Shown: positions 1-8,254 of the stretch, in pieces
How positions within the stretch are numbered: position 1 is the stretch's first letter
Layout of the letters: each line of letters begins with the position of its first letter
IMG/VR virus record: IMGVR_UViG_2565956626_000015
DNA: 8,254 nucleotides
DNA from: a virus
Lineage: Duplodnaviria > Heunggongvirae > Uroviricota > Caudoviricetes
Direction: 5' to 3' (one strand)
Translations under genes and position numbers: made by a program
The notes under the pieces: generated by a model
What the model saw: only the letters and a program-made list of their open reading frames with translations
Told to the model about the DNA's origin: nothing
Databases searched by the model: none

Positions 1-34
1 GTTCAGTTGGTTCAGTTGGTTCAATTTGTAAAGA
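1..34. repeat. Left terminal inverted repeat, perfect 34-bp partner of 8221-8254
   Basis: Bases 1-34 (GTTCAGTTGGTTCAGTTGGTTCAATTTGTAAAGA) are the exact reverse complement of 8221-8254, compared by hand. They contain two contiguous GTTGGTTCA units (6-14, 15-23) preceded by a partial unit GTTCA. Confidence 0.9.
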
Positions 35-66
35 TCGTTGTTTTTATTGTGTTTTTTCTGAAATAT

Positions 67-117
67 TGAACCAACATCAACTCATTTTGAACCAACACAG
101 CCCAGCTCTGAACCAAC
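67..117 (+). repeat. Iteron array: three direct TGAACCAAC copies at 67-75, 88-96, 109-117
   Basis: Three exact 9-mers start exactly 21 bp apart (two helical turns), in opposite orientation to the two terminal copies at 6-23. This is typical of arrays of protein-binding sites. Confidence 0.8.
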
Positions 118-164
118 AACACAGCGATAGCTTTGTGATTGGCCCGTTATTTTCTGGCTGATAT

Positions 165-203
165 TTGAGCGTATAACAGTGTTATACAGTGGTATACTGT
201 ATG
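165..203 (+). promoter_or_regulatory. Putative promoter/operator upstream of the Mnt-like gene: three tandem 10-bp repeats
   Basis: 171-180 GTATAACAGT, 181-190 GTTATACAGT, 191-200 GGTATACTGT give ACAGT/ACTGT pentamers at 176, 186, 196. TATAACAGTGTTATA is a dyad, and -10-like hexamers TATAAC (173-178) and TATACT (193-198) lie within it. The -35 element could not be placed confidently. Confidence 0.4.
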
Positions 204-219
204 GATATTACTCACTGAT

Positions 220-663
220 ATGGTCTTTGCAATGAGCAAATCTAATCTGGTCGCGTTCCGCATCCCATCTGAATTGCAGGATGAGTTTAATCGGTCTGTT
301 CTCGCTTCTGGAGGGGATAAAACCTCCTGGCTTGTTGATGCGATTCGCATGAAGCTGGGACAGCCGGAAAAGTCTATTGATTCACGAATGCTTGGGCTGG
401 TGGAGCGCATGGAAAAAGCCGCTGCGTCGCTTATTGCCGGAAAGCCGAACATCCCACCAAAGCCATATAACGAAACGGCAGTTATAAAGATCATTGCCGA
501 TACCATCCGACAGGGGTTTGATAATGGGCGTGTGATAGCGGAACGGCTCAATGAAGCAGGCTATCAAACAAAAGCTGGTAAAGCATGGGATAAAGACATT
601 TACAGCGCGTGGAAGCGTCAGGGAAGCAATGCTGAAAAGTTATCAGTGGCTCTAAGAATGTAG
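220..663 (+). CDS. DNA-binding protein with N-terminal Arc/Mnt-type RHH domain and C-terminal serine-recombinase-type DNA-binding motif (147 aa; alternative start ATG 232)
   Basis: N-terminus (LVAFRIPSELQDEF...GGDKTSWLVDAIRMKL) fits the RHH pattern beta-strand/helix/G-x-S-T/helix seen in P22 Arc and Mnt (FNFRMPMEV...GRSMNSELL). C-terminus (VIAERLNEAGYQTKAGKAWDKDIYSAWKRQG) resembles the conserved motif of the recombinase domain of large serine recombinases. No clear Shine-Dalgarno, so the start is uncertain. Confidence 0.65.
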   Translation: MVFAMSKSNLVAFRIPSELQDEFNRSVLASGGDKTSWLVDAIRMKLGQPEKSIDSRMLGLVERMEKAAASLIAGKPNIPPKPYNETAVIKIIADTIRQGFDNGRVIAERLNEAGYQTKAGKAWDKDIYSAWKRQGSNAEKLSVALRM

Positions 664-679
664 CCCTATATTTTGATTT

Positions 680-1057
680 TTAGACGTGCTTGGAGAACAG
701 GTAGCGTGCCATCACTAAAACAATGCCAAAGACTTCAGCGAGGGTTCCCCCCATAAATAGGTTTATAACGAAATCACTAAAATGGAGCAGTTTTGCTCCA
801 ATAAGGACAAAAATCCCATTCATAACTAATAGCTGGCCTATCAGAATGCCGATAAACCACCGAGCAAACATTTTTTTCAGTTTTGTGTCTGTTTTTAAAT
901 CTTTTGTTTTTGCACGCTGATGGGCTTTGGCTGGATCCTCATCATTTAGATGTGTGAGGGTTTTTGCTGATGGTGATGAGCCAGAGGCTGGTTCACCTCT
1001 GGCTTGTCTTGCCGCTTGCTTTAGTTTTTCAGATATAGCGTAAGATCTAGACGTCAT
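680..1057 (-). CDS. Small membrane protein, 125 aa: charged Lys/Pro/Ala-rich cytoplasmic N-terminal tail plus two predicted TM helices
   Basis: Hydrophobic segments WFIGILIGQLLVMNGIFVLIGA and INLFMGGTLAEVFGIVLVMARYLF follow a roughly 60-aa hydrophilic N-terminus. Its ATG lies 3 nt after the stop of the upstream peptidase gene (TGA-GTA-ATG), indicating translational coupling. Confidence 0.7.
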   Translation of the reverse strand: MTSRSYAISEKLKQAARQARGEPASGSSPSAKTLTHLNDEDPAKAHQRAKTKDLKTDTKLKKMFARWFIGILIGQLLVMNGIFVLIGAKLLHFSDFVINLFMGGTLAEVFGIVLVMARYLFSKHV

Positions 1058-1060
1058 TAC

Positions 1061-1549
1061 TCATCGAAGCCCTAAATTCTTTAGGCGATAACGTATAGCA
1101 TCATCGGATACACCAAAATAGGAAGCCATCATTACTGGTGCATATCCTGCATTGTTGAGGCGTCGAACCTCTTTTTCTGGCATGAGAAGACATGCTGCAA
1201 AGTTATTGGCGAATATTTCTTCGCTGTCTACACCTTGGCTTGCCAGTTTTCCGCGGTAATCAACAAACTCATATTCAAGTGGCTGACCGTTCTCAGTTCG
1301 TTTGACGTAATGCCCTAACTCATGCGCACACGTAAATCGTTTGCGCACGTTACTATCATTACGATTGAGTATGATTACTGGATCTTGTTCTGGCTCTTTC
1401 AGCAATGCGCCTGAAACATCATCATCAAGCGTGGTTTCAACAACATCCAACCCTAACTCATTGGCAATCCATACTGGATCAACCGGGAATTTCCTATCGC
1501 CCCAGATATCTTTCAAGAGGGCATGTGCAGATGTATTCGACATGTTCAC
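1061..1549 (-). CDS. ImmA/IrrE-family zinc metallopeptidase (Peptidase_M78/DUF955-like), 162 aa, standalone without HTH domain
   Basis: HExxH motif in CAHELGHYV with downstream FANNFAACLLMPEKEV, characteristic of ImmA/IrrE peptidases. Strong Shine-Dalgarno (AAGGAGGTGA) sits 5 nt upstream of the ATG at 1549. Confidence 0.85.
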   Translation of the reverse strand: MNMSNTSAHALLKDIWGDRKFPVDPVWIANELGLDVVETTLDDDVSGALLKEPEQDPVIILNRNDSNVRKRFTCAHELGHYVKRTENGQPLEYEFVDYRGKLASQGVDSEEIFANNFAACLLMPEKEVRRLNNAGYAPVMMASYFGVSDDAIRYRLKNLGLR

Positions 1550-1630
1550 CTCCTTTGATTATGGTTAAATAGTCGAAATTTTCACCACTTCCCTTGTGGA
1601 TATATTTACATATAAAAGGTAACTAGTCAC

Positions 1631-1642
1631 TAACCAACACAA
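1631..1642 (+). promoter_or_regulatory. Internal iteron-like site TAACCAACACAA in the peptidase operon upstream region
   Basis: AACCAACACAA (11 nt) exactly matches the terminal iteron copy read as the reverse complement of 8144-8154. It lies in the intergenic region between the peptidase start (1549) and the divergent mini-ORF (1725). Confidence 0.3.
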
Positions 1643-1724
1643 ATCTTTTTGAAGACAGATGGGGGGTGTTGAACGGTTTTTAAATGATTTCTTTGATTTT
1701 TAACAGCAATAAGGAGCATTTTTA

Positions 1725-1778
1725 ATGAAATTAGACGTTGATAATAACTTTTTGAGCAATCTTTACATATCATGGTAG
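1725..1778 (+). CDS. Mini-ORF, 17 aa (MKLDVDNNFLSNLYISW), with strong RBS; possible leader peptide or relic N-terminus
   Basis: AAGGAG at 1711-1716 lies 8 nt upstream of the ATG at 1725. It is divergent from the peptidase operon, and no long ORF follows. Confidence 0.2.
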   Translation: MKLDVDNNFLSNLYISW

Positions 1779-2000
1779 CCTTCTATGCTGTTTTTCCAAC
1801 TAAAAGATTGGCACATTTATCCGCTGGTAGTGGCGTTTTTTCGCCGCCAGCGCCTCTCTGGTTCCATTCCTTACATCTGTTCAAATTCAGCAACCCTTGC
1901 CGCGATCTTGCCGTTATCGAGAAGCTCTTTCGCTTTTCGGTTAATACTATCGGTCTTCATATTGCCAGCAGCATACGCCATCCGATAATTTCGATGCTAC

Positions 2001-2380
2001 GCGCGCGTACTTGTCGCAAAATATCAGGCAAAGGCCAGATTCAGAAAGTCGTGATAACCACCAGCACAACATGAGAGGTCATGTAACGCGATTTATCACA
2101 CCAGATACATGTGATTGGTGTACCCGCATAAAACATCGTCATAGCGCGTCCTGTGCGCATATACGCCGATAATCAACACATCACCACCACTCTGTCTTAT
2201 GTAGAGAACAGTTTTATGGTGCTCCCCGCCATCGTGTGCGTACTGGTCGGACGCAGTTCAAAAAATTTTGCAACTGATACCCCTCGCGCGCGTACTGGTC
2301 ACGAAATTGGTGTTTTGCTGTGGCAGTGATATCAGAAAAATCTTCCTGTTTCACATAAAGCGGATATGCGCGTACTGTAA
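2001..2380. repeat. Dispersed repeat family with core GCGCGTACTGG, four copies
   Basis: GCGCGCGTACTTGTC at 2001-2015, GTGCGTACTGGTC at 2236-2248, GCGCGCGTACTGGTC at 2286-2300 and GCGCGTACTG at 2368-2377, all in a stretch lacking a convincing ORF. Confidence 0.5.
2096..2310 (-). pseudogene. Possible frameshifted remnant of a RelE/ParE-family toxin gene
   Basis: Minus-strand translation gives ...TVLYIRQSGGDVLIIGVYAHRTRYDD..., resembling the conserved RelE/ParE C-terminus (Y-R-x-x-x-x-V-x-I-L-x-V-x-H-R-x-x-Y). The upstream part is in another frame with no intact start. Hand translation only. Confidence 0.2.
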
Positions 2381-2493
2381 CGGCCCCATCAACGGGGATC
2401 GGATTTGAAATCCTGACCCAAGCTATGTACCAAATGCCATGTCTTGGATATATGATGATTGCCATTCTAAACAAAGCTAAAGGGAGGGTTGGT

Positions 2494-2844
2494 GTGAATG
2501 CTCAGGCTGTCATCATGGTTTTCCTTGGTCTGATTGTCGCAAAACTATATCCAGACTGGTGGAAAGGGGCATTAGCAACTGTCGCCATCTATTTGCTTTT
2601 ATCCGTCGTTAAGCGATCGTTCGTTAAGACCGTAAATCAAGCAAAACGTTTCTCATTTAAGAATTTAATAAACTATATTACTGGGCTTATTTTTTGCCTT
2701 TCAATTTTGATCGCTTCAGCTTTTTTGCCCGTATCAATAGCTAATTTTTTTGGCGCACCATATGAGGTAGGTTATCTATTCTCTGTTTTTTGTCTTGTTC
2801 TTTCCCTTCTTTACCTATGGATGAGAGCAAAGAACAAAAATTAG
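2494..2844 (+). CDS. Small polytopic membrane protein, about 4 TM helices (116 aa from GTG 2494; 139 aa if ATG 2425)
   Basis: Strong Shine-Dalgarno (AAAGGGAGGG, 2478-2487) precedes the in-frame GTG at 2494, whereas the ATG at 2425 has none. Four hydrophobic segments are present. It is convergent with the 701-aa gene, in the position P22-like phages use for superinfection-exclusion morons. Confidence 0.6.
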   Translation: MNAQAVIMVFLGLIVAKLYPDWWKGALATVAIYLLLSVVKRSFVKTVNQAKRFSFKNLINYITGLIFCLSILIASAFLPVSIANFFGAPYEVGYLFSVFCLVLSLLYLWMRAKNKN

Positions 2845-2858
2845 CCATCCGTGGCTAA
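2829..2858 (-). terminator. Putative intrinsic terminator after the 701-aa gene (minus strand), in the convergent gap
   Basis: Inverted repeat TTAGCCA-tccg-TGGCTAA (2841-2858) is followed on the minus strand by TTTTTGTTCTTT. The stem is short and GC-poor, so strength is doubtful. Confidence 0.3.
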
Positions 2859-2862
2859 CCAG

Positions 2863-4968
2863 TTATTGAGCTTCTTTTTGTGATGCCTGTGCGACTCTGG
2901 TGAGCGATTGTGTGACCGTACTGATCGCTCTGTCATATGCTGTGCTACCTTTTGGTGTATTTGCCAGACGTAACAAGGCATTTCGTATAACAGGGCTTTC
3001 GTATGCCTTCGCTGCTCCGCCTACGGCACCAGCAGCAGGAACAACAAACGCAGCTGTTTTTAGCATCCCCGCTAATACTGCTGCGTTTATGATGCCACCA
3101 CCAACTAACAATCCATAAAGCTGCTGACCATTTAAGTTTTGAACGTTCGCTTTTGCCGCGTGTCTTGTATCGTTGAGGTATTTAATAACGCCGTCCAGTT
3201 CCTTTCCATGTACGCCTTTAAAGAAAGTTGCTGATTGCTTCCTGTTCCGGTGTAACGCATTAATAAACTTCTCAACACTGATATTTCCAGACGGATCAGT
3301 CGCCTTATCTACAGCATTCTGAACTATGGCTGCTCGTGCGTTTTGCCTACCATTGTCATCCAGAAGCCTGTAAAGCTGAGAACGTTCTGATGGGCTTTGG
3401 CTAAAAACGAGTTTTGTTACATCCTCAGGCGTGGCCTTGCCGCTGGCTATTGCCTTTTGAACGCGCGTTCTTCCCATCATGTCATTGAATTTAGACCATG
3501 AGCGATCAACCCTTGCCATATTAATGGCTTCGTCTGCTCCAAGATTTTTGGCTACGGCTTTTTTCATATCCGCCGTATATGCCTTGTAGATAATATCGCT
3601 GGCTTTCTGGAGCGTATCTTTATCAACAGTGTCAGATGACGCCATAAATCGCTTTCGAAGATCGGTTCTGTTTTCCCTCGCCAGACGCAGGTCATTTGGT
3701 CCGCTGGTGATATCGTCTTTAAATTGCTGCAAGACTTTTACCGCGGCTCTATCCTGAGATTTGCCCGGGCGGCTTAACACGGCAATCTGATTGTCGATAG
3801 CTTTTACCGTGTTTGAGAGATCGACAGGGGTATCCCCCATAGCGTCAATTATGCGGTTATATCGCTTTCCTGCTGCCTCAATGAATTTTTGTTGCCCTTT
3901 AGTCGCAGATTCATAAAGCTGTTTATCAGAAATGCCACCCAGACCATCGCTAAATGTTCTGACTAAATTTTCTCGTGCTTGTTGTTGATTCAGCCGATTC
4001 TTACCGGTTCCAAAAAAAGGAACTCTTTCGCCTAATGTCTGAGCCTGACTCTGCATAAAGGTTTTATCTTTCAGCATGTCACTGGTCATTAACGGCAGAT
4101 TTCTTTCCGATGCAAAGTCGACAGCAGCCTTTGCTTCAGGCGACATATCACCACGAACAGCCCTCGAAACCGCACTCGCTGTATTTTCCAGCCCCTTACC
4201 AATACCACCAATGCCAGCAGAAATTACCGTTTGTAACGGATCAATATCTTCTCCACCAGCAAGGCTGGTGGCTCCCTGTAGTGCTAAATCTGTAGCTGCT
4301 GATTTTCCTATGGCACCAAGCACCGTTCCAGCCCTGCCCGCTGGTGTAAACGCCAACGCATTAGCAAGAAACGAAGTCAGGTCTTGCGGTGATAAACCCG
4401 GTTTGTTTAGGGCATAATCACCTGATGGCAGAGAAACGATAGTATTCCCCTTCTCATCCTGCCTTAATGTCGCCCCCATTCCCTGGAGAATCTTTTCCTG
4501 AGACGCGTCAGAGCCGAAAAGTTGAGACCATCCAGCCTTTAGGGCATCCATGCTTAGTGAGTTCAATTCTGGGGCAGAGGCGACATTTTGCAGTCTCTCC
4601 ATCTCTGGAGTCATTCGGCTTTCGCCTGTTATAGCATCCCGCATCGCAGCCCCAAGACTGGCTCCCTGTTCTGCTGAACGCTCAAGCCCCTCTCTTTGCT
4701 GAGTAGCTAACTTTGCATACCCTGACGCAAGAGAATTATCAGATGATGTATGTTGAATATTTTGAGTTGCTGATTGGGATCGGTCTATTTCATTCGTTGA
4801 TGGTAGTGGATAGGCAGCATAAAAAGCCTGCTTAGCCTGCTCTACACTTTCTCCGGCTTGCGGGGCCACGACTTCATTGAAGTATTGCTCCTGAGCCTGC
4901 GCTTTTTGTTCTGGTGCTAACGCCTGATACTGTGGAGAGGCGATAACATCTTTCCATGCTTTAGCCAT
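2863..4968 (-). CDS. Phage internal/ejection protein-like, 701 aa (P22 gp16-like by position and composition)
   Basis: Last gene of a four-gene coupled operon. Gln/Ala-rich with a Gly/Ala-rich hydrophobic C-terminal segment (LVGGGIINAAVLAGMLKTAAFVVPAAGAVGGAAKA). Its start overlaps the upstream stop (TAATG). Confidence 0.5.
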   Translation of the reverse strand: MAKAWKDVIASPQYQALAPEQKAQAQEQYFNEVVAPQAGESVEQAKQAFYAAYPLPSTNEIDRSQSATQNIQHTSSDNSLASGYAKLATQQREGLERSAEQGASLGAAMRDAITGESRMTPEMERLQNVASAPELNSLSMDALKAGWSQLFGSDASQEKILQGMGATLRQDEKGNTIVSLPSGDYALNKPGLSPQDLTSFLANALAFTPAGRAGTVLGAIGKSAATDLALQGATSLAGGEDIDPLQTVISAGIGGIGKGLENTASAVSRAVRGDMSPEAKAAVDFASERNLPLMTSDMLKDKTFMQSQAQTLGERVPFFGTGKNRLNQQQARENLVRTFSDGLGGISDKQLYESATKGQQKFIEAAGKRYNRIIDAMGDTPVDLSNTVKAIDNQIAVLSRPGKSQDRAAVKVLQQFKDDITSGPNDLRLARENRTDLRKRFMASSDTVDKDTLQKASDIIYKAYTADMKKAVAKNLGADEAINMARVDRSWSKFNDMMGRTRVQKAIASGKATPEDVTKLVFSQSPSERSQLYRLLDDNGRQNARAAIVQNAVDKATDPSGNISVEKFINALHRNRKQSATFFKGVHGKELDGVIKYLNDTRHAAKANVQNLNGQQLYGLLVGGGIINAAVLAGMLKTAAFVVPAAGAVGGAAKAYESPVIRNALLRLANTPKGSTAYDRAISTVTQSLTRVAQASQKEAQ

Positions 4969-6389
4969 TAATCACCCCATAGTGAAGAAAAGTTACTGCT
5001 GGCTGCTGGCTGTGATACCTGCTCAGATTGCGGCAATGTCTGCGACGAAGAAGAAGTTCCTCTGTCAACTGCTGAAATAACCCGCAAAGCATCATAAGCT
5101 CGACCAGAAGCAGCTTTCAGCGAATTGAACTGGTTTTCCATCTTCCGGCGCTTGGTATCAATGGTTTTTGTGGAGTCGCCAGGCTGAGGGAAATACATTT
5201 GATAATATTTTGACATTTCAGCAGGTACGATAGCTGCCCCTGTTTCCTGACGGAGTATTGCCATTATTGCGTCATTAGCATTAACAACGTATTGCTGCTC
5301 TGTTGGGCTGAGCGTTAAGTTAGCCAGCGTCCCATTACCCAAAGCATTATTAATGACCGCCACTCGCTGTGGGCTAAGCTGGTCTTTCAGTGTATCTATT
5401 GAATCAAGAGCATCCCTAACCCTGTATGCAAATCCAGCAGCTTTTTTAGCCCCTTCTGGCGACTTTTCCATGATCTTTTGGGCTGTTGGCAAAGCTATTG
5501 GACGAAATCCATCTCCAGATATTGGCTGGTTTAGTTTTCCCTGCTCTTCACTTCCGTCTGTGTAGTATTTTGTGACAGTGCCATCATCGTTTTCTCTAAC
5601 ACTCATTAATTTTTTGGCGTTTGTATTAATTCCAGCCGCTGCCGCAAATGCCGCCGCCCCCTCTGGATCCGCCTTTAACATTTGAGCGTACTGATTGTAA
5701 TTCTGCATTGCTGCTGTTGGTGCATATGCTGACGTTAACGCATTTGCTCGGCTAATATCCTGCCCTCTCGCCTGAAGTGCTTCGCCAGCCTGATTGCTGC
5801 GGATTGTCTCTGCCAACTTGCCACGCTCAATATCCCGACCTTCCATTTGATCTTTGATATCGAAATACTTCTCATGACCGAGAGAAAACAGTGCCATACT
5901 ACCAGCAAGCCGCTGGAACCACTGTGGATCATTAACATGCATTTCGGCAACAGACTCAGGAGAAATTCCCAAGCGACGCATTTCATCTTCGTTATCTGCT
6001 ATGAATTTTCCAAATGCCCCAGTTCCGAGCGAAGATGCGATTTGAGCACTAGTCGCAAGATGACCAATAGAATTTCTCTGGTCGTCATCAATAAAGCCCA
6101 TCCCTTTCTGAACGCTTTCAAATTCTTCTGGATACTCAGAAATAAGACTGCGCATTTTGTTTCTGTCTCCAGACTCAAAAGCCCCGGCATATGCTTTCTG
6201 AAACTCTGCTTTACGCTGTTGTTGACGTGCCTGCTGATTAATCTCAGCAACGCCTCTTAGCCCCTGTAGCGCCATTAAACCTACGTTTGGCTGCTGCTGA
6301 TACTGCACAGGCTGAGGAACGGAAGAACGAGGAGCATTATCATTTTGCGGTGCCATGCTAGGCAGCCCGCCAAGTTGCCATGTCGCCAT
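4968..6389 (-). CDS. Phage internal/ejection protein-like, 473 aa (P22 gp20-like by size and position)
   Basis: Overlaps both neighbours by TAATG start/stop. Gln-rich and largely helical in composition. Size is close to P22 gp20 as I recall it (about 471 aa). Confidence 0.5.
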   Translation of the reverse strand: MATWQLGGLPSMAPQNDNAPRSSVPQPVQYQQQPNVGLMALQGLRGVAEINQQARQQQRKAEFQKAYAGAFESGDRNKMRSLISEYPEEFESVQKGMGFIDDDQRNSIGHLATSAQIASSLGTGAFGKFIADNEDEMRRLGISPESVAEMHVNDPQWFQRLAGSMALFSLGHEKYFDIKDQMEGRDIERGKLAETIRSNQAGEALQARGQDISRANALTSAYAPTAAMQNYNQYAQMLKADPEGAAAFAAAAGINTNAKKLMSVRENDDGTVTKYYTDGSEEQGKLNQPISGDGFRPIALPTAQKIMEKSPEGAKKAAGFAYRVRDALDSIDTLKDQLSPQRVAVINNALGNGTLANLTLSPTEQQYVVNANDAIMAILRQETGAAIVPAEMSKYYQMYFPQPGDSTKTIDTKRRKMENQFNSLKAASGRAYDALRVISAVDRGTSSSSQTLPQSEQVSQPAASSNFSSLWGD

Positions 6390-7066
6390 TAGAATCCAAG
6401 CCCCCCAACAAGACCAATAAGCCCACCACCAATAGCGCCGGCCGCAGTACCTATTCCAGGAACAACGGAACCAAGTTGCGCACCCGCTAAAGCGCCTGAT
6501 GCTGCCCCACCAATACCACGCGCAAGACTGGATGGCTGCTGCGCCTGACCTGCACGAATAGCGCCAAGCCCCTGCAAGAGTTGCCCGGTATTATTGGCGT
6601 AGTTTTGCCCTGCTGTTGCCTGCCCTGATGCCGCATTCATCCCGACATTTAGCAGGTTTCCATAATTTTGCATTTGCCCACTAAGCCAATTGTTATAAAG
6701 CATGGGCGCAATGGAAGATAACTGGTTACTGGTAGCTGTTGAGCCAAGCCCCCCGGTAGCTTCTGCTGAGACAAGGTTCTGATAACGGGCCTGATCTGCC
6801 TGTGTTTTATATAAACCAGAACCAAAGAAATCATTCGCGGCTTTATTCTGCCCTTCCAGAGTCATCAGTCCTTGTAGTTGTTGTAAAGCAGGCAATCCGA
6901 CTTCTGCATACGGCTTGAGATTATTCATCACCGTATTCCACTGCTCGCGCTGCAAATCAATTGCCTGCTGCTGGGCCTTCGCCTGAGCTTTAGAGGCACC
7001 ACCATCACCGCCTTTTTCGTATACGGCACGATTGAGATGTTTATGAGCTATATGGGTAATTAACAT
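6389..7066 (-). CDS. Phage internal/ejection protein-like, 225 aa (P22 gp7-like by size and position), with Gly-zipper C-terminus
   Basis: C-terminus GGAASGALAGAQLGSVVPGIGTAAGAIGGGLIGLVGGLGF is a glycine-zipper-like membrane-active segment. Its start overlaps the stop of the upstream gene (ATGTTAA). Confidence 0.5.
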   Translation of the reverse strand: MLITHIAHKHLNRAVYEKGGDGGASKAQAKAQQQAIDLQREQWNTVMNNLKPYAEVGLPALQQLQGLMTLEGQNKAANDFFGSGLYKTQADQARYQNLVSAEATGGLGSTATSNQLSSIAPMLYNNWLSGQMQNYGNLLNVGMNAASGQATAGQNYANNTGQLLQGLGAIRAGQAQQPSSLARGIGGAASGALAGAQLGSVVPGIGTAAGAIGGGLIGLVGGLGF

Positions 7067-7521
7067 TCGCTGAGTTCCTTATATTGTTGCCGAGTTAACT
7101 GATAAAGCGTTACGCCAACTGGCTTACCACATCTGATATATGCATCGGCCAGGTGACCAACACGGGTAGCGCCAAGCAAACGGATAATTGCCCGTCCGTA
7201 TTTGGTGGTGTCAGGAACCATGGTAATGCTGTTAAGGAATGGTGAGTTTTCGAGAAGCCATTTGCAGAATAATCGATGCCCTTGCAGTGCATATTCACCA
7301 CGGAATCCGGGGTCGTACACCGCATGGCATTCAACAACGCTATGCCAGAAGTTACGCACTTCATGAACGCCAGCCAGCACTAATCCTTCGTAGATGCCGA
7401 GATATACCGCATCAGGCTTGATGTAGTACGTGTGCCCCGGCTCAACAATATTTTCGGTATTGCCTGGCTCGTTAAGAAAGGCCTGTAATCGCACAGGGTT
7501 ATCAATAAATTTTAGTTCCAT
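7060..7521 (-). CDS. Hypothetical protein, 153 aa; positional equivalent of P22 gene 14, or alternatively an SOS-controlled antirepressor-like protein
   Basis: ORF is translationally coupled to the downstream 225-aa gene and starts 16 bp after the Arc-like ORF. No recognisable catalytic motif. Confidence 0.6.
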   Translation of the reverse strand: MELKFIDNPVRLQAFLNEPGNTENIVEPGHTYYIKPDAVYLGIYEGLVLAGVHEVRNFWHSVVECHAVYDPGFRGEYALQGHRLFCKWLLENSPFLNSITMVPDTTKYGRAIIRLLGATRVGHLADAYIRCGKPVGVTLYQLTRQQYKELSEC

Positions 7522-7537
7522 GCGATGCCATCCATTT

Positions 7538-7699
7538 TCACATACAGCCTGCCAGCGCCTTATCTATTAACCCTCGTGCAATTTCATGCAGAGTTGGCGC
7601 TACTCCAATTCCTGATTTTTTACGCTGCTCTTCCTGAATTTTCTTTATCGCTTCCATTTGCTTCTCACTTATCAATACCGGCTTTACTGAAATAGCCAT
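7538..7699 (-). CDS. Small Arc/CopG-type RHH DNA-binding protein, 53 aa (MAISVKPVLISEKQMEAIKKIQEEQRKKSGIGVAPTLHEIARGLIDKALAGCM)
   Basis: Not in the supplied ORF track (below its length cutoff); found by hand translation of the minus strand. Shine-Dalgarno AAGGGGG lies 4 nt before the ATG. The beta-strand/helix/G-x-x/helix layout is typical of RHH repressors. Confidence 0.55.
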   Translation of the reverse strand: MAISVKPVLISEKQMEAIKKIQEEQRKKSGIGVAPTLHEIARGLIDKALAGCM

Positions 7700-8097: not shown

Positions 8098-8147
8098 CAC
8101 TCTCTGATGCCAGCCAGGTGTTGTGCGCATCAATTCAGTCACATTGT

Positions 8148-8188
8148 GTTGGTTCAAAATACCGTGTTGTTGGTTCAGTGTTGGTTCA
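8148..8188 (-). repeat. Iteron array, right end: GTTGGTTCA at 8148-8156, 8169-8177, 8180-8188
   Basis: Three exact copies of the reverse-complement iteron. Copy 8180-8188 mirrors left copy 67-75 exactly; the other two are shifted by about one helical turn relative to the left arm. Confidence 0.8.
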
Positions 8189-8220
8189 ATAAAAAGAATA
8201 AAATCCTTATAAAACAATAC

Positions 8221-8254
8221 TCTTTACAAATTGAACCAACTGAACCAACTGAAC
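8221..8254. repeat. Right terminal inverted repeat, perfect 34-bp partner of 1-34
   Basis: 8221-8254 (TCTTTACAAATTGAACCAACTGAACCAACTGAAC) is the reverse complement of 1-34, with two contiguous TGAACCAAC units (8232-8240, 8241-8249) plus a partial TGAAC. Confidence 0.9.

What the first reader, a model, noticed from the sequence alone, without database searches (positions are those of the whole stretch)
680..1549. Standalone ImmA/IrrE metallopeptidase coupled to a 2-TM membrane protein: candidate undescribed exclusion/abortive-infection module
ImmA/IrrE (M78) peptidases normally pair with an HTH repressor they cleave. Here the peptidase has an intact HExxH but no HTH domain or HTH partner, and is instead coupled (3-nt gap) to a small protein with a long Lys/Pro-rich cytoplasmic tail and two TM helices. 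The pair sits in cargo space downstream of the phage-like structural operon, where P22-like phages carry exclusion genes. One hypothesis is that the peptidase processes the membrane protein tail, or a phage protein, to trigger membrane damage or block DNA entry. I cannot tell from sequence whether this pairing is already catalogued.
Basis: partly seen in the sequence, partly recalled or inferred. Interest (0 to 1): 0.8.

Follow-up and report, generated by a model that had tools for sequence, protein, structure and literature searches.

The report
RosmerTA-type peptidase and membrane-toxin pair
The two genes are real and form an always-paired cassette, but they are an unannotated E. coli relative of the RosmerTA toxin-antitoxin phage-defence system already tested in Gordonia phage Kita, so this is a new member of a known kind.

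Summary
Both ORFs exist as described. One is a 160-aa M78 (ImmA/IrrE) zinc peptidase with an intact HELGH and no HTH. The other is a 125-aa protein with a Lys-rich N-tail and two TM helices. They are joined by TGA-GTA-ATG.

In 51 of 51 loci that carry a TM homologue, a close peptidase homologue sits immediately upstream. These loci come from several bacterial phyla and from viral contigs. No neighbouring gene recurs, and no HTH partner was found.

The pair is not undescribed. The peptidase is 43% identical over its full length to RmrA of Gordonia phage Kita. The TM family matches Kita RmrT by profile comparison (98% probability, E 3e-13). That system has the same gene order, and its peptidase also lacks an HTH. 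In published experiments its toxin depolarises the membrane, the peptidase counteracts it, and the pair defends against phages.

In E. coli the cassette fills a variable cargo slot of an integrase-primase island. This island is not a P22 prophage. A sister island carries AbiD in the same slot. PADLOC 2.0 has no model for the toxin, and RefSeq calls it hypothetical.

Verdict: a RosmerTA-type toxin-antitoxin and abortive-infection cassette, and a new member of a known kind. How the peptidase neutralises the toxin remains unknown.

The parts
1061..1543 (-). RmrA-like antitoxin: a single-domain M78 (ImmA/IrrE) zinc metallopeptidase of 160 aa. The longest ORF starts at the GTG at 1549.
   Evidence: Pfam PF06114 at 9.6e-20. 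It is 43% identical over its full length to Kita RmrA, E 2e-44. HExxH, the third-ligand Glu and the ANxFAAxLLMP motif are conserved. The AlphaFold2 model has pLDDT 89, and the best solved matches are CapP 7t5t and IrrE/PprI, covering their peptidase part only.
680..1057 (-). RmrT(D5)-like putative pore-forming toxin of 125 aa. It has a variable Lys-rich cytoplasmic tail, a conserved juxtamembrane motif D..TD..LKK.(Y/F)A, and two TM helices with invariant Q75 and E108 and near-invariant N80. The C-terminal end reads YLFSK.
   Evidence: Family alignment A1. hhalign of A1 against the Kita gp33 group gives 98% probability and E 3e-13. An HMM built from A1 finds Kita gp33, ThankyouJordi gp34 and c-st CST123 but not other small membrane proteins. 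Predicted as a helical hairpin. 1458 cluster representatives match at E<=1e-3.
1549..1555 (-). Shine-Dalgarno sequence AAGGAGG, 5 nt upstream of the ATG at 1543.
   Evidence: Read directly from the sequence. The RefSeq start agrees.
1055..1063 (-). Junction TGA-GTA-ATG. No strong SD precedes the second gene, so translational coupling is inferred.
   Evidence: Sequence. Spacing is -4 to +15 nt in 50 of 51 family loci.
1556..1808 (-). AT-rich upstream part of the cassette (37-39% GC), presumed to hold the promoter. This is inferred and not mapped.
   Evidence: Composition profile. This stretch is exchanged together with the two genes relative to sister islands. The consensus scan found no convincing sigma-70 site.
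623..1808 (.). The exchangeable cargo cassette as a whole. The left junction is at about 622. The right junction is at about 1809 relative to ABU 83972, or about 1930 relative to O26 RM10386.
   Evidence: blastn of the window against sister islands L066 and L068. The same slot holds AbiD in L068.

Best explanation
This is a self-contained two-gene toxin-antitoxin and abortive-infection cassette of the RosmerTA kind, of the subtype called RmrA_D25:RmrT_D5 in NetFlax.

The downstream 125-aa protein inserts into the inner membrane as an N-in/C-in helical hairpin. When unchecked, it oligomerises into a pore that depolarises and permeabilises the membrane. The upstream cytoplasmic M78 zinc peptidase is translated just before it and keeps it harmless. 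It probably does so by acting on the toxin's conserved cytoplasmic juxtamembrane or C-terminal motifs. Whether it works by cleaving the toxin or simply by binding it is not known.

Phage infection is then proposed to lift this control, so the infected cell loses membrane potential before the phage completes its cycle.

What is shown here:
- Both genes are homologous to the tested Kita system.
- The pairing is obligate.
- There is no HTH partner.
- The catalytic motif is conserved.
- The cassette sits in a defence-type cargo hotspot.

What is inferred:
- Toxicity, neutralisation and anti-phage activity of this E. coli copy.
- The membrane topology.
- The trigger.
For: Homology of the peptidase:
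- It is 43% identical over its full length to Kita gp32 / RmrA.

Homology of the TM protein:
- The family matches the Kita gp33 / RmrT group at hhalign probability 98%, E 3e-13, over 80 columns that span the juxtamembrane segment and both TM helices. Both groups share the TxxxE(V/I)xG...LF motif.
- An HMM built from A1 finds Kita gp33 (23.8 bits), ThankyouJordi gp34 and c-st CST123. It does not find control membrane proteins.

Shared architecture with Kita:
- An HTH-less peptidase comes first and the TM gene second, overlapping or nearly so, located after the virion-protein genes.

Published experiments on the Kita pair (PMC10440598):
- The toxin abolishes macromolecular synthesis and depolarises and permeabilises the membrane.
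- RmrA partly neutralises it.
- The operon protects E. coli against the BASEL phages Bas54 and Bas59.
- For RosmerTA in general, deletion of rmrA could not be transformed.

Behaviour as an autonomous module:
- The pairing holds in 51 of 51 loci.
- Neighbourhoods are unrelated. They include an insertion between cysD and cysN in Methylococcaceae, prophages, and a DUF927-primase island in Plesiomonas.

Hotspot evidence:
- The pair is in 69 of 5426 complete E. coli genomes, while the flanking backbone is in 527.
- A sister island has AbiD (PADLOC 7e-58) in exactly this slot.
Against: - No experiment exists for this E. coli copy or for any proteobacterial member.
- Similarity of the toxin to Kita RmrT is low at the pairwise level (25% identity, E 2e-5). 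It rests mainly on the profile comparison and on synteny.
- In Kita, neutralisation was incomplete, and the published AlphaFold attempt could not model a complex there.
- The near-universal conservation of the catalytic site is not explained by a simple binding antitoxin. Conversely, one MAG locus (L032) has lost HExxH while keeping an intact TM partner. The role of catalysis is therefore unresolved.
- PADLOC matches the peptidase best to CapP. It matches only the peptidase half of the longer RmrA models, whose remaining N-terminal part is presumably the HTH region. The validated Kita RmrA behaves identically.
Confidence: 0.78

Rival explanations
1. Addiction-only module. The pair is a toxin-antitoxin cassette that merely stabilises itself and the island it sits in, with no useful anti-phage activity in E. 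coli.
For: It behaves as a selfish cassette, for example by inserting between cysD and cysN in Methylococcaceae. In the Kita system the defence spectrum was very narrow: two of the BASEL phages.
Against: It occupies the slot that holds AbiD in a sister island. It also recurs in prophage and satellite cargo regions. The tested homologue does defend. Addiction and defence are not mutually exclusive.
Confidence: 0.12
2. Classical ImmA-type anti-repressor. The peptidase cleaves a repressor encoded elsewhere in the island to induce excision or replication, and the TM protein is an unrelated passenger.
For: This is the canonical job of ImmA, IrrE and CapP. The island does encode an HTH regulator near its integrase, and an RHH-like (by eye) 147-aa ORF lies next to the pair.
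Against: No HTH gene recurs next to the pair in about 33 diverse loci. The pair occurs in non-mobile contexts. The 147-aa ORF is 92% identical in a sister island that carries AbiD instead of the pair, so it belongs to the backbone. The TM gene is never found apart from the peptidase in the 51 loci.
Confidence: 0.04
3. The peptidase is a sensor that processes the tail of the TM protein, or a phage protein, to switch on membrane damage or to block DNA entry. This would be protease-activated exclusion.
For: The catalytic site is strictly conserved. The N-terminal tail varies in length and sequence, like a removable pro-segment. Relatives such as CapP and IrrE are signal-activated proteases (for the fold; their activation is from my own knowledge).
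Against: In the Kita homologue the TM protein is toxic without the peptidase, and the peptidase relieves the toxicity. For RosmerTA, loss of rmrA appears lethal. The peptidase lacks the C-terminal GAF-like sensor domain of CapP and IrrE: it aligns to positions 5-150 of the 242-position CapP profile, and TM-scores normalised to target length are about 0.42.
Confidence: 0.06

Closest known systems
RosmerTA of Gordonia phage Kita (RmrA_D25 = YP_009301393.1, RmrT_D5 = YP_009301394.1; Ernits et al. 2023, PMC10440598)
   Same: Both genes are homologous. The peptidase is 43% identical over its full length, and the toxin profile match is 98% probability, E 3e-13. Both have the same order and coupling, with the peptidase first. 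Both peptidases lack an HTH. Both toxins have a hydrophilic tail of about 50-60 aa followed by 2 TM helices. Both sit in mobile-element cargo next to virion-protein genes.
   Different: The host phylum differs (Pseudomonadota versus an actinobacteriophage). Toxin identity is only about 25%. The proteobacterial toxins have their own strongly conserved motifs (WFIGILIGQL..MN, GGTLAEVFG). This copy is untested. It is carried by an integrase-primase island rather than a temperate phage.
Canonical RosmerTA (Millman et al. 2022; PADLOC RmrA/RmrT models)
   Same: A two-gene toxin-antitoxin defence system whose antitoxin carries a Zn-peptidase (COG2856/M78) domain and whose toxins are diverse. The peptidase hits 13 RmrA models.
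   Different: The PADLOC RmrA models are 357-400 positions long. I take them to combine an N-terminal HTH with the peptidase, as NetFlax says many D25 proteins do. Here only the peptidase half is present, matching for example positions 165-292 of 380. No PADLOC model matches this toxin or the Kita toxin, so PADLOC 2.0 would not call the system.
ImmR/ImmA (ICEBs1), DdrO/IrrE (Deinococcus), CapH/CapP (CBASS regulation)
   Same: The same M78 peptidase fold and catalytic motif. CapP 7t5t and IrrE/PprI are the best solved-structure matches.
   Different: Those proteases cleave an adjacent XRE-type HTH repressor, and none is associated with the pair here. CapP and IrrE have an extra C-terminal domain that is absent here. 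The conserved partner here is a membrane protein.
HTH-less M78 peptidases paired with other small membrane proteins in phages (P2-like OU784750 and Salmonella MET_P1_103_31, Burkholderia Carl1, mycobacteriophage Che9c gp32/33, a Helicobacter prophage)
   Same: The peptidases are related (30-48% identity) and are followed by a small protein with hydrophobic segments, usually overlapping by 4 nt, in phage cargo regions.
   Different: Their downstream proteins are not detectably related to the D5-type toxin (A1 HMM E >= 0.008 in a 12-sequence test). This suggests partner swapping within the clade. None of these pairs has been tested, as far as I found.

Membership tests
RosmerTA, Kita subtype (RmrA_D25:RmrT_D5) | The antitoxin is an M78/COG2856 Zn-peptidase homologous to Kita RmrA | tested here: met
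   Pfam PF06114 at 9.6e-20. BLASTP against Kita gp32 gives 43% identity over 162 aa, E 2e-44. PADLOC hits are the same as for Kita RmrA.
RosmerTA, Kita subtype (RmrA_D25:RmrT_D5) | The toxin is a small membrane protein homologous to Kita RmrT_D5 | tested here: met
   hhalign of A1 against A4 gives probability 98%, E 3e-13, over 80 columns. The A1 HMM scores Kita gp33 at 23.8 bits while control membrane proteins are negative. The pairwise comparison alone is weak: 25% identity, E 2e-5.
RosmerTA, Kita subtype (RmrA_D25:RmrT_D5) | A bicistronic operon, peptidase first, with tightly coupled genes | tested here: met
   The gap here is 3 nt. Spacing is -4 to +15 nt in 50 of 51 loci. In Kita the genes overlap by 4 nt.
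RosmerTA, Kita subtype (RmrA_D25:RmrT_D5) | The toxin is toxic by membrane depolarisation and is neutralised by the peptidase | not testable with these tools
   Shown only for the Kita proteins.
RosmerTA, Kita subtype (RmrA_D25:RmrT_D5) | Protection against phage infection | not testable with these tools
   Shown for Kita RmrTA against Bas54 and Bas59. Here the only support is location in a cargo slot that holds AbiD in a sister island.
Canonical RosmerTA (as modelled in PADLOC) | RmrA with the full length of the PADLOC models (taken to be an N-terminal XRE-type HTH fused to the peptidase) | tested here: not met
   M78 is the only domain found. The match covers only the peptidase half of the RmrA models. 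None of the 120 closest homologues has any domain other than PF06114. The validated Kita RmrA shows the same partial match.
ImmR/ImmA-type repressor/anti-repressor switch | An adjacent HTH repressor gene that is the protease substrate | tested here: not met
   No family recurs among the two genes on either side in about 33 loci. Ten small ORFs immediately upstream gave no XRE-type repressor hit; the single hit was a Sigma70_r4 fragment. The neighbouring 147-aa ORF belongs to the island backbone.
CapH/CapP regulators of defence operons | A CapP-type two-domain protease plus a CapH HTH, next to CBASS or another defence operon | tested here: not met
   Only positions 5-150 of the 242-position CapP profile are matched. 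Foldseek gives TMq 0.69 but TMt 0.42 against 7t5t. There is no HTH gene or CBASS gene nearby.
P22-type superinfection exclusion (SieA/SieB) or immI genes | Homology to known Sie or immI proteins, within a P22-like prophage | tested here: not met
   The TM protein hits only PHROGs of unknown function. The element lacks capsid, tail and lysis genes and carries an integrase plus a TOPRIM/DUF927 primase. A true P22-like prophage (L067) has a different gene set after gp16.

The most novel reading that the evidence does not exclude
The strictly conserved active site may mean that the peptidase is a catalytic antitoxin. In that case it would continuously clip the toxin's conserved cytoplasmic juxtamembrane segment rather than sequester it, and a phage product or a phage-induced signal would inhibit or divert the protease. 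That would be a protease-gated membrane pore with no HTH substrate at all, a mode of toxin control not yet demonstrated for M78 peptidases. The family is widespread and has no Pfam entry (1458 cluster representatives).
Probability: 0.25. Interest if true: 0.55.

Novelty: new member of a known kind. Interest (0 to 1): 0.3.

Why it matters
- It gives a name and a testable function to a gene pair that is annotated only as 'ImmA/IrrE family metallo-endopeptidase' plus 'hypothetical protein'. The pair is present in about 1.3% of complete E. coli genomes, and the exact proteins are also recorded in Salmonella.
- PADLOC 2.0 has no model for this Rosmer toxin type, so this subtype would go uncounted in surveys that rely on it.
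- The toxin family is large and has no Pfam entry. A native E. coli member is a convenient model for the open question of how an HTH-less M78 peptidase controls a membrane toxin.
- It also marks a cargo hotspot in a common E. coli integrase-primase island, one that carries AbiD in a sister island.

Tried and rejected
- Megablast of window 1-2900 against the phage collection gave no match.
- tblastn of the TM protein against phages gave no match even at E 10, probably because of the low-complexity filter. The link to Kita came through the peptidase instead.
- A word-indexed homologue search with Kita gp33 gave only 3 hits. I therefore built the Kita-side profile from phage partners fetched individually.
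- The NetFlax supplementary tables contained neither E. coli accession, but the largest file is truncated, so this says nothing either way.
- Two literature searches for mechanistic work on Rosmer or ClpP essentiality gave nothing more specific.
- The promoter scan found no convincing minus-strand sigma-70 site upstream of the operon, and the counts equalled those of shuffled sequence.
- Rfam found nothing in the window, and no tRNA gene lies in the 27-kb locus.
- I considered the 147-aa ORF at 220-663 as a hidden DNA-binding partner. I rejected it because it is part of the island backbone.
- I considered PD-Lambda-2 and PDC-M69. Both gave only weak matches confined to the peptidase domain.

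Full report
**1. Observation**

The window has two minus-strand ORFs at 1061-1549 and 680-1057.

- The upstream ORF is a Peptidase_M78 (IrrE/ImmA) domain protein. Pfam gives E 9.6e-20 over residues 30-157, and no other domain is found.
- An AAGGAGG at 1549-1555 lies 5 nt before an ATG at 1543, and RefSeq starts the protein there. The product is therefore most likely 160 aa.
- The junction reads TGA-GTA-ATG, with no strong ribosome-binding site for the second gene. This points to translational coupling.
- The second product has no Pfam, NCBIfam or PADLOC hit and matches only PHROG 5346, of unknown function.
- Hydropathy and an AlphaFold2 model (pLDDT 67) give a short N-terminal helix, a disordered stretch, then a helical hairpin at residues 42-87 and 95-122.
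- The tail is Lys-rich (10 of 62 residues) but has only 3 prolines.

**2. The pairing is obligate and autonomous**

I collected relatives of the TM protein from three sources: protein searches, one genome per species, and viral contigs.

- In every locus that holds a true homologue (51 of 51, counting the E. coli source record L001), a close homologue of the window peptidase lies immediately upstream on the same strand. phmmer E-values are 1e-21 to 1e-110, the weakest being a copy cut off by a contig end.
- The spacing is -4 to +15 nt in 50 of the 51 loci.
- The hosts include Enterobacterales, Pseudoalteromonas, Methylococcaceae, Microbulbifer, Betaproteobacteria, Nitrospirota, Desulfobacteraceae, Balneola and a Bacillota MAG. 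Fourteen of the loci are IMG/VR viral contigs.
- The two genes on either side of the pair share no recurrent Pfam family. The commonest families match only 2-3 of about 60 proteins, and these are cysD and cysN in Methylococcaceae, where the pair is inserted between them.
- Ten small ORFs immediately upstream gave no XRE-type repressor hit. The only hit was a Sigma70_r4 fragment.
- All 120 closest peptidase homologues are 96-200 aa and carry PF06114 only.
- A more distant TM relative, taken from the exhaustive search, again had an M78 gene overlapping it upstream. A second, weaker one on a 1.4-kb contig did not.

**3. Identity**

A tblastn of the peptidase against deposited phage genomes returned Gordonia phage Kita and its relatives as full-length matches. 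By BLASTP the identity is 43% over 162 aa, E 2e-44.

Kita gp32 and gp33 are the RmrA_D25 and RmrT_D5 pair studied by Ernits et al. 2023 (PMC10440598). The paper reports the following:

- RmrA is listed with Peptidase_M78 as its only domain.
- RmrT is listed as 'Transmembrane'.
- The native gene order is antitoxin then toxin.
- The toxin shuts down translation, transcription and replication at once, and it depolarises and permeabilises the membrane.
- RmrA neutralises it, though incompletely.
- The operon protects E. coli against the BASEL phages Bas54 and Bas59.

Kita gp33 (119 aa) resembles the window TM protein only weakly in a pairwise comparison: 25% identity, E 2e-5. I therefore built a small profile from Kita gp33, two actinobacterial homologues, ThankyouJordi gp34 and Clostridium phage c-st CST123.

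- This profile matches the proteobacterial family profile with hhalign probability 98%, E 3e-13. The match covers 80 columns spanning the juxtamembrane segment and both TM helices.
- Both groups share the TM2 motif T-x-x-x-E-(V/I)-x-G ... L-F.
- As a control, an HMM of the proteobacterial family finds those three phage proteins. It does not find another membrane protein of the window, or the membrane partners of related peptidases in P2-like phages, Che9c or Carl1.

The pair is thus a homologue, gene for gene and in the same order, of a tested RosmerTA system.

**4. What the sequences say about mechanism**

Peptidase:
- H-E-x-x-H, the Glu about 30 residues downstream (the third zinc ligand by analogy with IrrE) and the ANxFAAxLLMP motif are 92-100% conserved in 52 sequences. 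Catalysis is evidently under selection.
- The AlphaFold2 model (pLDDT 89) matches CapP 7t5t, IrrE/PprI and a Mycobacterium tuberculosis transcriptional regulator (6cz6). It covers only their peptidase part (TMq 0.6-0.7, TMt about 0.4). The C-terminal sensor-type domain of CapP and IrrE is absent.

Toxin:
- The N-tail varies freely in length and sequence.
- The segment D..TD..LKK.(Y/F)A before TM1, polar residues inside the helices (Q75, N80, T105, E108) and the C-terminal YLF(S/P)K are invariant or nearly so.
- By the positive-inside rule, both conserved non-membrane motifs face the cytoplasm, where the peptidase is. This is an inference.

One MAG locus (L032) has a peptidase that has lost HExxH next to an intact toxin. 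This is a single hint that binding alone could be enough to neutralise the toxin. It may equally be a decaying locus or an assembly error.

The published AlphaFold attempt for Kita also failed.

**5. Genomic setting**

The window is 99.9% identical to E. coli chromosomes such as NZ_CP024245. In that record the gene order, starting at dinD, is:

- PerC
- the 147-aa ORF
- the TM gene and the peptidase gene
- about 900 nt with no annotated gene
- a 139-aa membrane protein
- P22-type gp16, gp20, gp7 and gp14
- a TOPRIM/DUF927 primase
- DUF4222
- AntA/B
- a helix-turn-helix regulator (AlpA-like position)
- an integrase

This is an integrase-primase island, like a phage satellite in outline, and not a P22-like prophage.

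- The pair occurs once per genome in 69 of 5426 complete E. coli genomes. The adjacent backbone occurs in 527.
- Alignment to sister islands places the exchange junctions at about 622 on the left and about 1809 or 1930 on the right.
- The same slot holds AbiD (PADLOC 7e-58) in O26 RM10386 and two unknown proteins in ABU 83972.
- The 147-aa ORF is 92% identical in the AbiD-bearing island, so it belongs to the backbone and is not a partner of the peptidase.

Elsewhere the pair also sits in mobile-element cargo: after the tail genes and before the integrase in Kita, in a DUF927-primase island in Plesiomonas, and in viral contigs.

**6. Comparison and verdict**

By homology of both genes, their order and their coupling, this is a member of the Kita subtype of RosmerTA.

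- It differs from canonical RosmerTA as modelled in PADLOC. It matches only the peptidase half of those 357-400-position RmrA models, and its toxin has no model there. The validated Kita proteins behave identically against PADLOC.
- It is not an ImmR/ImmA or CapH/CapP switch, because the HTH partner, a defining feature of those systems, was looked for and not found.
- Related HTH-less peptidases in P2-like phages, Che9c, Carl1 and a Helicobacter prophage are followed by small membrane proteins of unrelated sequence. This suggests partner swapping within this peptidase clade.
- The toxin family is large, with 1458 representatives at 50% identity and E<=1e-3, and it has no Pfam entry.

The finding is therefore real and correctly read as a defence-type module. 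The question that remains open is how an M78 peptidase with no repressor substrate controls a membrane toxin.

Noticed in passing
window 1-122 and 8145-8254: The window is bounded by long inverted repeats: 1-44 against 8211-8254 (44 nt, 93% complementary), plus 62-99 against 8145-8182 and 102-122 against 8164-8184. They are built from a 9-nt iteron, TGAACCAAC. There are 10 exact copies, five at each end in mirror order, where 0.04 are expected by chance. The left array lies between the PerC gene and the 147-aa ORF. The right array lies just 3' of the primase gene. The sister island L068 has the same arrangement. They could be origin iterons, regulator binding sites, or the ends of a mobilisable or invertible segment.
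   Followed up: partly
window 2863-7699; L001 15154-26786: The element is an integrase / AlpA-like HTH / AntA-B / DUF4222 / TOPRIM-DUF927 primase island. The only P22-type virion genes it carries are those for the ejection proteins gp16, gp20 and gp7 and for gp14 (DUF2824). It has no capsid, tail or lysis genes. It looks like a satellite-type island that supplies its own ejection proteins. Its backbone is present in about 10% of complete E. coli genomes.
   Followed up: partly
window 1780-2480, minus strand: This stretch of about 700 nt is unannotated and holds frameshifted coding remnants. One fragment resembles a ParE/RelE-type toxin by eye (...GGDVLIIGVYAHRTRYDD). Another reads MAYAAGNMKTDSINRKAKELLDNGKIAARVAEFEQM. 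No Pfam hit was obtained for the 86-aa piece. Part of the stretch (1809/1930-2497) is shared with sister islands.
   Followed up: partly
window 2425-2844 (+): A 139-aa protein with about four hydrophobic segments lies directly beside the gp16 gene, convergent with it, in the position where P22 carries sieA (the P22 gene order is from my own knowledge). It has no family hit. It is conserved in the island family and, in part, in a true P22-like prophage (L067).
   Followed up: no
window 220-663 (+): This 147-aa ORF has an N-terminus that looks ribbon-helix-helix-like by eye (SNLVAFRIPSELQDEFNRSVL...SWLVDAIRMKL), but it has no significant Pfam hit. It is 92% identical in a sister island with different cargo and diverges only in its last ~10 residues, at the cassette junction. 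It may be the protein that reads the nearby iterons; this is speculation.
   Followed up: partly
L032 3618-4477: In a Methylococcaceae MAG contig the peptidase of the pair has lost its catalytic residues (HELGH has become RELGR, and the downstream Glu motif is degraded). The TM partner keeps every invariant residue. This is either a pseudo-peptidase antitoxin or a decaying or misassembled locus.
   Followed up: partly
L002, L007, L014 (about 5500-6350 in L002 and L007; 1786-2622 in L014): In three Methylococcaceae lineages the pair is inserted between a cysD-type (PAPS_reduct, 302 aa) gene and a cysN-type (GTP_EFTU, 541 aa) gene, on the same strand with short gaps. It appears to sit inside a housekeeping sulfate-activation operon.
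   Followed up: no
L058, L060, L062, L063, L065: Related HTH-less M78 peptidases occur in P2-like phages (OU784750, Salmonella MET_P1_103_31), Che9c (gp32), Burkholderia Carl1 and a Helicobacter prophage. Each is followed by a small protein with hydrophobic segments that shows no detectable similarity to the D5-type toxin. This suggests a wider and untested set of peptidase plus membrane-protein modules.
   Followed up: partly
L066 3832-5238: In E. coli ABU 83972 the same cargo slot holds two co-oriented hypothetical proteins (318 and 145 aa) with no PADLOC hit. Given that the slot holds AbiD or the Rosmer-type pair in other islands, these are candidates for another defence cassette.
   Followed up: no
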